A DNA stretch of 6,453 nt from a virus (lineage: Duplodnaviria; Heunggongvirae; Uroviricota; Caudoviricetes), in IMG/VR virus record IMGVR_UViG_2713896899_000008. One strand, 5' to 3'. This document shows, piece by piece, positions 1,283 through 5,703 of this stretch (position 1 is its first letter; every line of letters begins with the position of its first letter). Position numbers and translations under genes: made by a program. A model generated the notes under the pieces. That model saw only the letters and a program-made list of their open reading frames with translations. It searched no databases and was not told where the DNA came from.

Positions 1283-1404
1283 GGTATTAAAAAACGCTCC
1301 GCACACATAAGTTGGGCGCCTGAGATGCGGGGATAGGGAGTTGGTTAAATAGTTATACAACAATACCTGATTTTGCATTGAAGCAAGGAGGAGGTTGCCA
1401 CATA

Positions 1405-1533
1405 TTGAATCATGCACGTGTACGTCAAATGTGGGAGGTCATCGTGCTGGTTCTGAAATGTGCGCTGGCTATTGCGGCTGTAATGGCAATTTATTGTCTT
1501 GTTATTGTTCTTATGGAGCACCTTTCTGATTGA
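1405..1533 (+). CDS. Candidate small single-pass membrane peptide (42 aa from TTG 1405; 34 aa from ATG 1429)
   Basis: Strong SD AAGGAGGAGG (1385-1394), then in-frame TTG 1405 and ATG 1429, stop TGA 1531-1533. Product (MNHARVRQ)MWEVIVLVLKCALAIAAVMAIYCLVIVLMEHLSD has a basic N-terminus and one hydrophobic helix. T is regular at codon position 2. An overlapping frame is also open, so coding status is unproven. Confidence 0.3.
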   Translation: MNHARVRQMWEVIVLVLKCALAIAAVMAIYCLVIVLMEHLSD

Positions 1534-1557
1534 TTTCATATTGGCGAGGTGACGGGA

Positions 1558-1587
1558 GTTAAGTAGAATTGCTGTGGGTGCTTGAGG
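1558..1587 (+). promoter_or_regulatory. hok mRNA 5' element complementary to the 3' end (tac-like)
   Basis: GTTAAGT (1558-1564) and GGGTGCTTGAGG (1576-1587) are antiparallel-complementary to ACTTAAC (1965-1971) and CCTCAACGCACCC (1950-1962, one bulged C), which sit just 5' of the hok terminator. Confidence 0.4.
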
Positions 1588-1744
1588 CTATCTGTCTCAG
1601 GCATGAACACCAACGGCAGATAGAGAAAAGCCCCAGTTAACATTACGCGTCCTGCAGGACGCTTAACATTAATCTGAGGCCAATTTCATGCTAGACACAT
1701 GTAGGTTAGCCTCTTACGTGCCGAAAGGCAAGGAGAAGCAGGCT

Positions 1745-1900
1745 ATGAAGCAGCAAAAGGCGATGTTAATCGCCCTGATCGTCATCTGTTTAACCGTCAT
1801 AGTGACGGCACTGGTAACGAGGAAAGACCTCTGCGAGGTACGAATCCGAACCGACCAGACGGAGGTCGCTGTCTTCACAGCTTATGAACCTGAGGAGTAA
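1745..1900 (+). CDS. hok: Hok/Gef-family type I toxin (51 aa), HokD/RelF-like
   Basis: Product MKQQKAMLIALIVICLTVIVTALVTRKDLCEVRIRTDQTEVAVFTAYEPEE matches the Hok family hallmark (N-terminal TM helix, conserved Cys, C-terminal periplasmic tail) and is near-identical to E. coli HokD as I recall it. SD AAGGAG (1730-1735) at 9-nt spacing. Confidence 0.9.
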   Translation: MKQQKAMLIALIVICLTVIVTALVTRKDLCEVRIRTDQTEVAVFTAYEPEE

Positions 1901-1949
1901 GAGACCAGGCGAGGGAGAAATCCCTCGCCACCTCTGATGAGTCAGGCAT

Positions 1950-1971
1950 CCTCAACGCACCCGCACTTAAC
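1950..1971 (+). promoter_or_regulatory. hok mRNA 3' fold-back element (fbi-like), partner of 1558-1587
   Basis: See the 1558-1587 feature. Position immediately upstream of the terminator hairpin matches the hok-family mRNA architecture. Confidence 0.4.
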
Positions 1972-1995
1972 CCGCTCCGGCGGGTTTTGTTTTTT
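1971..1995 (+). terminator. Rho-independent terminator of the hok transcript
   Basis: Stem CCCGC (1971-1975) / GCGGG (1980-1984) with loop TCCG, followed by TTTTGTTTTTT (1985-1995). A 9-bp GAAA-loop hairpin lies upstream at 1908-1929. Confidence 0.75.
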
Positions 1996-2067
1996 CCTGG
2001 CATTCTGGTTTACAATTCGCACGCCAGCCTGAACAACTGGCACCTGCTGCGCCAGCAGAGACAGCCG

Positions 2068-4467: not shown

Positions 4468-4521
4468 TCATGCAAATCTGATATTTTGCCGATTTTGTAC
4501 GTGATGGCAAAAGCAAACAAA

Positions 4522-4547
4522 ACCCGCCCACAAGCGGGTTTTTTTTG
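4522..4547 (+). terminator. tR'-like intrinsic terminator
   Basis: Stem ACCCGC (4522-4527) / GCGGGT (4534-4539), loop CCACAA, followed by an 8-T run ending at 4546. Confidence 0.75.
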
Positions 4548-4628
4548 TGCCACTTATCTCGGATAGACATGGTGAATGCGCTGGTGGAGGAAGTAAGGGT
4601 GATTTTTAATCAGGTGATTTTTGAATGC

Positions 4629-4666: not shown

Positions 4667-4742
4667 GGCCCTTTAGCTCAGTGGTGAGAGCGAGCGACTC
4701 ATAATCGCCAGGTCGCTGGTTCAAATCCAGCAAGGGCCACCA
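4667..4742 (+). tRNA. tRNA with CAU anticodon, ileX/ileZ-like (tRNA-Ile2, lysidine type; Met not excluded by anticodon alone)
   Basis: 76 nt cloverleaf: acceptor GGCCCTT/AAGGGCC, D-stem GCTC/GAGC, anticodon loop CTCATAA, T-loop TTCAAAT, A73, encoded CCA. Overall sequence resembles E. coli ileX. Confidence 0.88.
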
Positions 4743-4743
4743 A

Positions 4744-4820
4744 CCGCCACTAGCTCATCAGGAAAGAGCGTCAACCCTTTAAGTTGAGTGTGCGAGGTTC
4801 GAGTCCCCGGTGGCGGTCCA
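4744..4820 (+). tRNA. Atypical tRNA, anticodon loop CCTTTAA (nominal anticodon UUU, Lys)
   Basis: 77 nt cloverleaf: acceptor CCGCCAC/GTGGCGG (C1:G72), D-stem GCTC/GAGC, anticodon stem TCAAC/GTTGA, T-arm CGAGG-TTCGAGT-CCCCG, U73, encoded CCA. C at position 33 and U73 are unusual for a Lys tRNA. Confidence 0.6.
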
Positions 4821-4822
4821 GT

Positions 4823-4898
<76 letters not shown>

Positions 4899-4901
4899 TA
4901 T

Positions 4902-4976
<75 letters not shown>

Positions 4977-5139: not shown

Positions 5140-5703
5140 TTAGTTTTTATTCGCCGTCCATTTACCACAAATTGGTCTGGAGAAGATTGCCAGAATGGCA
5201 ATAAAGGATATTTCAATTGAAACAGACCAGCATATATGTCCAATCAGTTCGCTCCAGAATTCATAGCCGTTTAGATTCCATAGCCACCCTCTTTCATGGC
5301 CGGGAAGATACGCGGGAAATCTGAAGCCCAGCGCGGGTATTAAAATACCATGCATGACTAATGTAATAAGAATTCCATATACAGCCCCATACCACATGCG
5401 GACTCGTGGAATAAAAACAGACAGGTATATGTATACAAAGGCAAAAATGAAACTAAAAAGCCAATGATAGAGCATAACAGCTCCGGGAATTGTTACTCCC
5501 TGGTAAATGTAATCCAGCGAGTGTGAATTTATTCCCAGAAAACCCAACCAGGCGTCGATATTCATTGCTGGTGGAGAAATTTCTCCGGCCATTCTTGGGG
5601 GCATGTTAGCTTCAGTTCCTGATTTCACCAGAGAGCTGATCGCGCCACCGACCAGTGTTGCCCAAAGTATGATTTTTAGATTTACGCTATTCCATTTACA
5701 CAT
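5140..5703 (-). CDS. DUF1440/YagU-family inner membrane protein (187 aa)
   Basis: Minus-strand ATG at 5703-5701 is preceded by GAGG at 6-nt spacing; stop is TAA (complement of 5140-5142). Product shares blocks with E. coli YagU as recalled (VKSGTEANMPPR, MWYG, MHGILIPALG, SELIGHICWSVSIEI). The 280-aa ORF-track version is rejected as an N-terminal extension. Confidence 0.62.
   Translation of the reverse strand: MCKWNSVNLKIILWATLVGGAISSLVKSGTEANMPPRMAGEISPPAMNIDAWLGFLGINSHSLDYIYQGVTIPGAVMLYHWLFSFIFAFVYIYLSVFIPRVRMWYGAVYGILITLVMHGILIPALGFRFPAYLPGHERGWLWNLNGYEFWSELIGHICWSVSIEISFIAILAIFSRPICGKWTANKN

What the first reader, a model, noticed from the sequence alone, without database searches (positions are those of the whole stretch)
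1676..1747. Upstream reading frame entering hok is in-frame (ATG 1688), not an out-of-frame mok
An ATG at 1688 with GAGG 8 nt upstream opens a frame continuous with hok, giving a 70-aa extended product. The other two frames cannot supply an overlapping leader ORF: one has stops at 1692, 1707 and 1746, the other has ATG 1699 followed by a stop at 1702 and no start codon afterwards. If hok translation here depends on an upstream frame, it would have to be this in-frame one, unlike the classical separate mok frame as I recall it.
Basis: partly seen in the sequence, partly recalled or inferred. Interest (0 to 1): 0.45.

Follow-up and report, generated by a model that had tools for sequence, protein, structure and literature searches.

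The report
In-frame mok leader of hok toxin
The upstream ATG really does open a frame continuous with the hok toxin gene, but this in-frame "mok" leader is the ordinary, already annotated layout of this branch of the hok/sok toxin-antitoxin family (mokW of phage 933W, mokC of E. coli K-12), so it is correct but not new.

Summary
Observation confirmed. ATG 1688 has GAGG at 1676-1679, 8 nt upstream. It lies 57 nt upstream of hok ATG 1745 in the same frame, giving a 70-codon ORF (1688-1900). The other two frames are blocked exactly as described.

[quoted passage not shown] It is 97% identical to E. coli "hokD" loci and 93% identical to hokW/mokW/sokW of phage 933W.

The contrast with plasmid R1 is real: R1 mok starts 58 nt upstream, out of frame. 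The in-frame layout is already on record, though. GenBank annotates mokW as a 70-codon ORF sharing its stop with hokW. K-12 mokC shares its stop with hokC. F-plasmid srnB also has an in-frame start 57 nt upstream.

Across 81 distinct leaders from about 165 loci, the mok-to-hok distance is 57 or 60 nt in 54 (in frame), 58 nt in 16 (R1-type overlap) and 56 nt in 11. In the 56-nt class a 19-codon leader ends in a TGA that overlaps the hok ATG.

The 19-residue extension shows no peptide-level selection. Its conserved nucleotides are RNA and Sok-promoter elements. Best reading: a translational-coupling leader whose frame is evolutionarily labile. Already known; low interest.

The parts
1541..1569 (+). 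predicted hok mRNA promoter (TTGGCG, 17-nt spacer, TAGAAT)
   Evidence: The only sigma-70-like site found in 1480-2050. It sits 7 nt before the 5' end of the Rfam match at 1576.
1576..1996 (+). hok mRNA (about 420 nt), from the conserved 5' end GGGUGCUUGAGG to the intrinsic terminator
   Evidence: Rfam RF01794 scores 115 bits over 1576-1750, with model position 1 at 1576. Terminator at 1969-1986 plus a T run. The fold has z = -7.8 against shuffles.
1576..1587 (+). 5' element (tac-like). It pairs with the 3' fbi element in the full-length RNA and with 1628-1634 once the 3' end is removed
   Evidence: MFE partners 1576-1587:1950-1962 in the full-length RNA. Partners 1576-1583:1628-1634 when the RNA is truncated at 1945.
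1628..1635 (+). ucb-like box (AAGCCCCA). It pairs with the SD(mok) region in the full-length fold
   Evidence: MFE pairs 1630-1635:1675-1680.
1676..1679 (+). Shine-Dalgarno of mok (GAGG). It is part of GAGGC 1676-1680, which pairs with GCCUC 1709-1713 in the processed RNA
   Evidence: The stem is kept in 78-81 of 81 distinct leaders.
1688..1900 (+). mok-equivalent ORF, in frame with hok: 70 codons, a 19-codon leader fused to hok
   Evidence: It maps base-for-base onto the annotated mokW of phage 933W.
1626..1696 (-). predicted Sok antisense RNA: single-stranded 5' tail, long hairpin, U tail. It is complementary to SD(mok) and the first 9 nt of mok
   Evidence: Coordinates transferred from the annotated sokW. 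sokC has the same geometry. The fold has z = -5.3.
1703..1731 (-). predicted Sok promoter inside the mok leader: -10 TAACCT (reverse complement of 1703-1708), 17-nt spacer, -35 TTGCCT (reverse complement of 1726-1731)
   Evidence: Read from the sequence. It is too weak for the consensus scan. The position fits a start at about 1696. The blocks are invariant in 26 related leaders.
1730..1735 (+). Shine-Dalgarno of hok (AAGGAG), 9 nt before ATG 1745. It overlaps the Sok -35 by two bases and is paired with 1711-1715 in the full-length fold
1745..1900 (+). hok toxin gene (51 aa, Hok/Gef family)
   Evidence: Pfam PF01848, E = 1e-21. RefSeq annotates the homologous ORF as hokD. The Hok core shows purifying selection.
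1950..1962 (+). fbi-like 3' element (CCUCAACGCACCC), complementary to the mRNA 5' end
   Evidence: 12 pairs with 1576-1587 in the MFE and centroid folds.
1969..1996 (+). intrinsic terminator of hok mRNA

Best explanation
[quoted passage not shown] ATG 1688 with its GAGG is the start of the mok-equivalent leader frame. In this lineage that frame is the hok frame itself.

Proposed working, by analogy with R1 hok/sok, with each step marked:
1. The full-length mRNA is locked by 5'-3' pairing, and SD(mok) is paired. This is predicted here.
2. 3' trimming lets the 5' end switch partner, and SD(mok) and the ATG move into a hairpin that Sok recognises. The refolding is predicted here; the trimming is inferred from R1.
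3. Sok RNA is transcribed from a promoter inside the leader. It covers SD(mok) and ATG 1688 but not the hok ribosome-binding site, so it blocks initiation at 1688. The geometry is shown by sequence; the function is inferred and was shown for the 93%-identical hokW/sokW.
4. Without Sok, ribosomes start at 1688 and read through the paired SD(hok) region. This yields a 70-aa extended Hok. It also opens the structure so that ribosomes can start at ATG 1745 and make the 51-aa toxin. This step is inferred.

The leader acts through being translated, not through its peptide. Whether it continues in frame, continues out of frame, or stops on the hok ATG varies among relatives.
For: Identity of the locus: Pfam HOK_GEF; Rfam sok RF01794 at 115 bits against a gathering score of 59; 97% identity to RefSeq 'hokD' loci; 93% identity to 933W hokW/mokW/sokW, where mokW is annotated in frame at the homologous ATG.

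In-frame mok elsewhere: mokC/hokC share their stop, mokA/hokA share their stop, and srnB has d=57. Out-of-frame mok: R1, mokB and pnd.

Survey: 81 distinct leaders give d=57/60 in 54, d=58 in 16 and d=56 in 11. By locus, the genome set gives 47/14/11, and the prophage set gives 68 in frame, 9 with d=56 and 2 without a leader.

The leader peptide is unconstrained. Variable columns by codon position are 9/9/8. Nonsynonymous to synonymous codon differences are 1652:479, against 1169:1244 in hok. The conserved block GCCTCTTA lies 20, 21, 22 or 24 nt from the mok ATG, so it is read in all three frames.

RNA architecture: tac-fbi pairing, ucb-SD(mok) pairing and partner switching on truncation; Sok fold.

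Experimental support in a close relative: the 51-aa HokW is toxic on its own, and sokW expressed from its own promoter suppresses toxicity of the native-leader construct (PMC8621323). Met20, the hok ATG, is invariant in 26 distinct in-frame sequences while the flanking codons vary.
Against: No expression or translation data exist for this window. Translational coupling has never been tested for an in-frame member with the tools used here, and the classical papers on gef/orf69 and srnB are not in the held library, so what they showed about coupling rests on my recollection. The predicted Sok promoter is weak (-10 TAACCT) and failed the consensus scan. The refolding prediction depends on the chosen 3' end: truncation at 1945 gives the tac-ucb switch, while 1950 and 1935 give other folds. 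In the processed fold SD(hok) is already about half unpaired, so independent initiation at 1745 without mok cannot be excluded. Frame counts are not phylogenetically independent.
Confidence: 0.8

Rival explanations
1. The 70-aa product started at ATG 1688 is itself a functional toxin proteoform, possibly the main one. On this view in-frame loci make a long and a short Hok with different properties, as the S. aureus SprG1 type I toxin does from two in-frame starts.
For: Any ribosome starting at 1688 must synthesise the whole Hok sequence with a 19-residue extension. By inspection the extension is hydrophilic and net positive (MLDTCRLASYVPKGKEKQA), so it would probably stay cytoplasmic and should not prevent membrane insertion; this is inference. 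The in-frame state is the commonest: 54 of 81 distinct leaders and 22 of 23 distinct leaders in the window's own lineage. A precedent for two in-frame toxic peptides is described in the review PMC4147584.
Against: The extension shows no peptide-level constraint: 9/9/8 variable columns by codon position and nonsynonymous:synonymous 3.4:1. Its conserved nucleotides are read in different frames in different in-frame loci. Close relatives switch to d=58 or d=56, where no long Hok can be made. The 51-aa HokW alone is toxic. The hok ATG and its SD are kept in all in-frame loci.
Confidence: 0.2
2. ATG 1688 is not used. Hok is translated only from ATG 1745, and the frame continuity is incidental, being one of three possible phases.
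For: An open 19-codon stretch is not rare by chance, and the phase varies among relatives. SD(hok) AAGGAG is a good ribosome-binding site and is partly unpaired in some predicted folds. The relE-hokD junction loci keep only SD(hok) and hok and lack the leader (L010, L015, L034, L037 and the degraded copy L063).
Against: In every one of 81 distinct leaders a start codon follows the conserved GAGGC (in a few GGGG or AGGG) by a few nucleotides (ATG in all but a few, which have TTG or GTG). In all but one (L071, where the start assignment is ambiguous) the ORF runs at least to the hok ATG. Sok covers this start and not the hok start, which makes sense only if initiation at 1688 matters or if only RNase III cleavage matters. 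The same site is annotated as the start of mokW and mokC.
Confidence: 0.07
3. The locus is a decayed, non-functional prophage copy, like several chromosomal hok loci of E. coli K-12, so the frame arrangement has no present function.
For: Reviews state that many chromosomal hok/sok copies are inactivated by insertions or rearrangements (PMC8309996). K-12 mokA is cut by IS150, and IS186 sits next to hokC. The predicted Sok -10 is poor.
Against: Every element expected of an active locus is present and uninterrupted: promoter, 5' element, ucb, SD(mok), ATG, Sok hairpin and tail, SD(hok), intact hok, fbi and terminator. Hok is under purifying selection in this lineage. The 93%-identical hokW/sokW works as a toxin-antitoxin pair.
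Confidence: 0.08

Closest known systems
hokW / mokW / sokW of Shiga-toxin phage 933W and Sakai prophage Sp5 (GenBank AF125520)
   Same: 93% nucleotide identity over the locus. mokW is a 70-codon ORF starting at the homologous ATG and sharing its stop with hokW. sokW is antisense over SD(mok) and the first 9 nt of mok. The element is carried by a lambdoid prophage. It was shown to be a working toxin-antitoxin pair (PMC8621323).
   Different: There are a few substitutions, for example leader codon 3 (Asp here, Asn in 933W) and the Hok C-terminus (TAYEPEE here, VDYESEK in 933W). The position within the phage differs: here it is upstream of DUF968-RusA-Q, in 933W near the right end of the genome.
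hokD-type loci of E. coli prophages (RefSeq 'type I toxin-antitoxin system toxin HokD')
   Same: 97% identity. The same neighbours follow: DUF968, RusA, Q, four tRNAs and YagU. The leader sequence is identical in L002.
   Different: RefSeq annotates only the 51-aa hokD and neither mok nor sok. The K-12 hokD (relF) copy type has lost the whole leader to the relBE junction (seen in L010 and L015).
hokC (gef) / mokC / sokC of E. coli K-12
   Same: mokC (16751..16960) and hokC (16751..16903) share their stop. The starts are 57 nt apart, so mokC is an in-frame 69-codon ORF. sokC overlaps the first 9 nt of mokC. mokC is cited as a regulatory peptide that fully overlaps hokC and enables its expression (PMC8825762, citing Pedersen and Gerdes 1999).
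   Different: Hok is about 80% identical. The conserved block GCCTCTTA lies one base closer to the mok ATG, so the leader peptide differs (MLNTCRVPLTDRKVKEKRA). The locus is chromosomal, not in a prophage.
srnB of F-type plasmids
   Same: An upstream ATG with GAGG lies 57 nt before the toxin ATG, in frame, giving a 68-codon ORF.
   Different: The toxin is distant. The leader sequence is unrelated apart from the GAGG and AGCCTCTT blocks. The element is plasmid-borne.
hok / mok / sok of plasmid R1 (parB), the textbook case
   Same: The RNA architecture and the conserved blocks are the same (GAGGC, AGCCTCTTAC, CAAGGAGAAG). Sok targets the mok start in both. mok is 70 codons in both.
   Different: R1 mok starts 58 nt upstream, so hok is read in the +1 phase relative to mok, and mok ends 4 nt before the hok stop. 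The extra base lies in the loop between the mok ATG and the AGCCTC block.

Membership tests
[quoted passage not shown] | Toxin ORF of the Hok/Gef family (about 50 aa, one transmembrane helix, conserved Cys-Glu core) | tested here: met
   PF01848, E = 1e-21 and 76.6 bits against a cut-off of 22. PHROG 251. NCBIfam Hok subfamily scores below its cut-off (44.8 against 73).
[quoted passage not shown] | Conserved structured hok mRNA leader | tested here: met
   Rfam RF01794 at 115.3 bits against a gathering score of 59, full model 1-157, over 1576-1750.
[quoted passage not shown] | cis-encoded antisense Sok RNA complementary to the mok translation initiation region, with its own promoter and terminator | tested here: inconclusive
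   The geometry was transferred from the annotated sokW and sokC. The predicted RNA has a single-stranded 5' tail, a long hairpin and a U tail, with z = -5.3. The promoter was read by eye and is too weak for the scan. Transcription is not testable here.
[quoted passage not shown] | Long-range pairing of the mRNA 5' end with a 3' fbi element that locks the full-length RNA | tested here: met
   12 predicted pairs, 1576-1587:1950-1962, in the MFE and centroid folds, with P(unpaired) 0.01. This is prediction only.
[quoted passage not shown] | Upstream leader ORF (mok) with its own SD that is translated into or up to hok | tested here: met
   GAGG 1676-1679 and ATG 1688; the ORF runs through hok. 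It is conserved in relatives.
[quoted passage not shown] | hok translation depends on mok translation (coupling); killing after loss of Sok | not testable with these tools
   This needs genetics or toeprinting. The only indirect support is the hokW/sokW experiments.
R1-type arrangement (mok out of frame, long overlap with hok) | The mok start is in a different phase from hok (distance 58 nt) and mok ends near the hok stop | tested here: not met
   The distance is 57 nt and the stop is shared. R1, mokB and pnd have 58 nt.
mokC / mokW / srnB-type arrangement (mok in frame, N-terminally extended Hok) | The mok start is 57 (or 60) nt upstream in the hok phase, there is no intervening stop, and the stop is shared | tested here: met
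   It is identical in layout to the annotated mokW and mokC.

The most novel reading that the evidence does not exclude
The phase between mok and hok is an evolutionarily labile three-state character: in-frame fusion, R1-type -1 overlap, or a 19-codon leader whose TGA overlaps the hok ATG. It flips by single-base indels even among near-identical loci. As a consequence, in-frame loci such as this one would make two Hok proteoforms (70 aa and 51 aa) that differ in toxicity, stability or membrane targeting. The ATGA stop-start class may not have been described before. A 2026 survey of Hok diversity explicitly left Mok unanalysed.
Probability: 0.25. Interest if true: 0.35.

Novelty: already known. 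Interest (0 to 1): 0.12.

Why it matters
For this window it matters little. The in-frame leader is the standard layout of the hokC/hokD/hokW branch and has been annotated for decades.

It is a useful reminder for annotation. RefSeq calls only the 51-aa hokD, while other pipelines call the 70-aa ORF as "Hok family toxin", so the same locus appears under two lengths in protein databases.

The survey made along the way has some general value. Translation through the hok ribosome-binding site is conserved; the leader peptide and its phase are not. This agrees with mok acting through the act of translation. It also leaves one cheap open experiment: is the long in-frame product toxic?

Tried and rejected
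1. I tested whether the R1-type mok phase (open here from 1705 to 1885) is kept open by selection in in-frame loci. Against synonymous-codon shuffles the window's openness is unremarkable (P about 0.18), and most in-frame loci have early stops in that phase. Rejected.

2. A 21-sequence Hok alignment was too diverse for the search for related loci. A 7-sequence alignment worked.

3. Literature. The classical papers are not in the held library. These are Thisted and Gerdes 1992, Poulsen 1991 on gef/orf69, Pedersen and Gerdes 1999, and Nielsen 1991 on srnB/pnd. One search was wasted on 'gef' and one was malformed. The held reviews describe only the R1 arrangement. Statements about what those papers showed are my recollection; the in-frame and out-of-frame facts themselves were re-derived from sequence and GenBank annotation.

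4. The two initiation-profiling preprints for E. coli do not mention hok or mok in the main text. Supplements were not searched.

5. I considered structure prediction of the 70-aa form but did not run it, because a model could not decide toxicity.

6. Covariation in the leader is weak because the stems are nearly invariant. It neither adds to nor detracts from the structure.

Full report
**1. The observation**

Direct reading of the window confirms every detail.
- GAGG lies at 1676-1679, 8 nt before ATG 1688.
- ATG 1688 is 57 nt upstream of ATG 1745 and in the same frame.
- The nearest upstream in-frame stop is TAA 1670.
- The ORF 1688-1900 encodes 70 residues: MLDTCRLASYVPKGKEKQA followed by the 51-residue Hok.
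- Frame +1 has stops at 1692, 1707 and 1746.
- Frame +2 has ATG 1699 followed by TAG 1702, then no ATG, GTG or TTG before TGA 1885.

An open 19-codon stretch in one of three phases is not improbable on its own. The feature is real because of homology, described below.

**2. What the locus is**

The 51-residue ORF is a Hok/Gef toxin (PF01848, E = 1e-21; PHROG 251 'MokW-like host killing'). Rfam's sok/hok-leader model RF01794 matches 1576-1750 over its full length at 115 bits, against a gathering score of 59.

The 461-base locus is 97% identical to loci that RefSeq labels hokD in E. coli. 4934 of 5426 complete genomes hold a relative, with a median of 2 copies and up to 9. It is 93% identical to hokW/mokW/sokW of phage 933W.

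The neighbours are those of a lambdoid prophage late-regulation region: DUF968, RusA, antiterminator Q, four tRNA genes, and a YagU/DUF1440 gene on the other strand. No complete E. coli genome in the collection contains the whole window. The best match covers 78% at 97% identity.

**3. Anatomy**

- *Promoter and terminator.* A promoter-like site (TTGGCG, 17-nt spacer, TAGAAT; 1541-1569) precedes the conserved 5' end at 1576. An intrinsic terminator lies at 1969-1996.
- *Full-length fold.* The 421-nt RNA folds much better than shuffles (z = -7.8). Its 5' end (1576-1587) pairs with 1950-1962, the equivalent of the fbi element of R1. SD(mok) (1675-1680) pairs with 1630-1635. SD(hok) (1731-1735) pairs with 1711-1715.
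- *Truncated fold.* With the 3' end cut at 1945, the 5' end pairs instead with 1628-1634, and GAGGC 1676-1680 pairs with GCCUC 1709-1713, a hairpin that carries the mok ATG. This matches the published R1 folding pathway as I recall it. The prediction is sensitive to the exact 3' end.
- *Sok RNA.* On the minus strand, coordinates transferred from the annotated sokW, and the same geometry in sokC, place Sok at about 1696 to 1626. The predicted RNA has a single-stranded 5' tail, a long hairpin and a U tail (z = -5.3).
- *Sok promoter.* Read by eye, it is TTGCCT (reverse complement of 1726-1731), a 17-nt spacer, then TAACCT (reverse complement of 1703-1708). It lies inside the 19-codon leader and is too weak for the consensus scan.
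- *Consequence.* Sok covers SD(mok) and ATG 1688 but stops 49 nt short of ATG 1745.

**4. Is the in-frame layout unusual?**

In a plasmid locus encoding a Hok identical to R1 Hok, mok is annotated at 543-755 and hok starts at 601. The starts are 58 nt apart, so mok is out of frame, and it ends 4 nt before the hok stop.

The in-frame layout is nonetheless already on record.
- GenBank AF125520 annotates mokW as a 70-codon ORF that starts at the base homologous to 1688 and shares its stop with hokW. The record note reads 'similar to Gef+leader protein of Escherichia coli'.
- The K-12 reference genome annotates mokC (16751..16960) and hokC (16751..16903) with a shared stop.
- The mokA pseudogene shares its stop with hokA.
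- mokB, by contrast, starts 58 nt before hokB and ends elsewhere, so it is out of frame.
- In an F-type plasmid, srnB has an in-frame ATG with GAGG 57 nt upstream, giving a 68-codon ORF. pndA of IncI plasmids has the 58-nt out-of-frame form.
- One held paper cites mokC as a regulatory peptide that completely overlaps hokC and enables its expression (PMC8825762).
- Protein databases hold hundreds of 69-70-residue clusters from E. coli and Salmonella that cover the whole 70-aa ORF. Representatives of divergent Hok lineages (42-72% identity) also carry an extension of about 19 residues.

**5. Survey of the phase**

I fetched 79 loci from species-representative genomes (Escherichia, Kluyvera, Photorhabdus, Pantoea, Pseudocitrobacter, Mixta, Enterobacter and others). 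I also fetched 80 prophage loci with Hok at least 98% identical. The mok start was taken as the first start codon after the conserved GAGGC.

| Set | In frame (d=57/60) | Out-of-frame overlap (d=58) | 19-codon leader, TGA on hok ATG (d=56) | Other |
|---|---|---|---|---|
| Genome set plus reference loci and the window, by locus | 47 | 14 | 11 | 6 without leader (5 relE-hokD junctions), 2 at contig ends, 1 ambiguous |
| Prophage set, by locus | 68 (22 distinct leaders) | 0 | 9 (1 leader) | 2 without leader |
| Pooled distinct leaders, n=81 | 54 (57 nt: 51; 60 nt: 3) | 16 | 11 | none |

All three states occur inside the hokD/W-like clade:
- the window has d=57;
- L009 has d=58, through one extra base in GGCACAGGAG;
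- L016-L018 have d=58;
- L022 has d=56.

Two of the states each occur in the hokC-like clade (K-12 with 57; L023 and L027 with 56) and in the R1-like clade (R1 with 58; L076 with 57).

The phase therefore flips by single-base indels on short time scales. The counts are not phylogenetically independent, so I draw no conclusion about selection for the in-frame state.

**6. Is the extension a protein domain?**

No evidence supports that.
- In 26 distinct in-frame sequences with the same register, variable columns fall evenly on codon positions 1, 2 and 3 (9, 9, 8).
- Pairwise codon differences are 1652 nonsynonymous to 479 synonymous. In the Hok part they are 1169 to 1244.
- The invariant block GCCTCTTA lies 20, 21, 22 or 24 nt after the mok ATG in different in-frame loci, so it is translated in all three phases.
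- The conserved nucleotides coincide with the 3' half of the SD(mok) stem, the Sok -10 and -35 hexamers, a small hairpin between them, and SD(hok).
- Met20, the hok ATG, is invariant while codons 17-19 vary.

**7. Mechanism**

The best-supported reading is the R1 model with a different phase. Sok blocks initiation at 1688. Without Sok, ribosomes starting at 1688 read through the paired SD(hok) region, which permits initiation at 1745 and unavoidably also yields a 70-residue extended Hok.

- *Shown here:* the sequence geometry, its conservation and the predicted RNA pairings.
- *Shown in a 93%-identical relative:* the 51-residue HokW is toxic alone, and sokW expressed from its own promoter suppresses killing by the native-leader construct (PMC8621323).
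- *Inferred:* 3' processing, coupling, and the fate and toxicity of the long product.

**8. Rivals**

- *The long product is itself a functional toxin.* It is necessarily made if 1688 is used, and the extension is hydrophilic and basic. The lack of peptide constraint and the frequent phase switches argue against a specific role.
- *ATG 1688 is unused.* This is unlikely because a start codon follows the conserved GAGGC in all 81 leaders, with an ORF reaching at least the hok ATG in all but one ambiguous case (L071), and Sok targets exactly this site.
- *The locus is decayed.* This is unlikely because every element is intact.

**9. Verdict**

The arrangement is an already annotated, common variant, arguably the majority form, of a textbook system. 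Novelty: already known. Interest is low.

The by-products are the three-state phase survey and the ATGA stop-start class. A 2026 survey of Hok diversity left Mok unanalysed because it was hard to call.

Noticed in passing
window 1680-1687 and 1691-1702 (also L090-L169 and L001-L084 at the homologous positions): Among loci whose Hok is at least 98% identical and whose leaders are otherwise nearly invariant, two short blocks are hypervariable by substitution but constant in length: the SD-to-ATG spacer and the 12 nt after the mok ATG. There are more than 20 variants, for example CTAGACACATGT, CTCTACACACGT, AACGGCAAATCT and TCTCACAAATGT. These bases lie in the hairpin loop that carries the mok ATG. 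On the other strand they are the 5' tail of Sok and the stretch between its -10 hexamer and its start. This looks like diversification of Sok-hok recognition specificity among the several copies that one genome carries.
   Followed up: partly
L022, L023, L027, L052, L055, L056, L064, L074, L075, L080, L081; nine prophage loci among L090-L169: A third leader geometry: the mok start lies 56 nt upstream, giving a 19-codon ORF whose TGA overlaps the hok ATG (ATGA). This is a stop-start coupling layout. It is found in Escherichia, Pseudocitrobacter, Pantoea, Erwinia and prophage contigs. I do not know of a description of it.
   Followed up: partly
L010, L015, L034, L037 (and the degraded copy L063); two prophage loci: These are hokD copies in which the whole leader (mok start, Sok, Sok promoter) is replaced by unrelated upstream sequence up to just before SD(hok) (..GTTGACAGGAGAAGCAGGCTATG). 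I take it to be the relBE-hokD (relF) junction known from E. coli K-12, where hok would no longer be under Sok control. The upstream sequence was not itself identified.
   Followed up: no
window 1576-1750, + strand: The Rfam family named 'sok antitoxin' (RF01794) matches the hok mRNA sense strand, from its 5' end to the hok ATG. The Sok RNAs annotated in 933W and K-12 lie on the opposite strand. The model therefore behaves as a hok-leader model.
   Followed up: no
window 1909-1990 (+) and 4471-4548 (+): There are sub-threshold Rfam hits to the Salmonella prophage sRNAs isrK and isrJ (28 and 23-25 bits; gathering scores 50 and 37). One falls on the hok 3' untranslated region (fbi plus terminator). 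The other lies just downstream of the Q gene, where a lambdoid late-promoter leader RNA would be expected.
   Followed up: no
window 4667-4976 (+): Four tRNA genes in a row lie downstream of Q: CAT (ARAGORN calls it Met; PGAP calls the homologue Ile), Lys-TTT, Thr-TGT and Gly-TCC. This is a typical prophage tRNA cluster.
   Followed up: no
window 1378-1533 (+), especially 1430-1533: A small, strongly hydrophobic ORF (MWEVIVLVLKCALAIAAVMAIYCLVIVLMEHLSD from ATG 1430) lies immediately upstream of the hok promoter. It has no Pfam or PHROG match, no obvious Shine-Dalgarno, and no annotation in the closest genome. It could be chance or an unannotated small membrane protein.
   Followed up: no
window 5140-5982 (-): The DUF1440/YagU-family ORF is 280 codons from its first ATG, but the domain covers only residues 114-257, and the homologue in the closest genome is annotated at 187 aa. 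The real start is probably internal.
   Followed up: no
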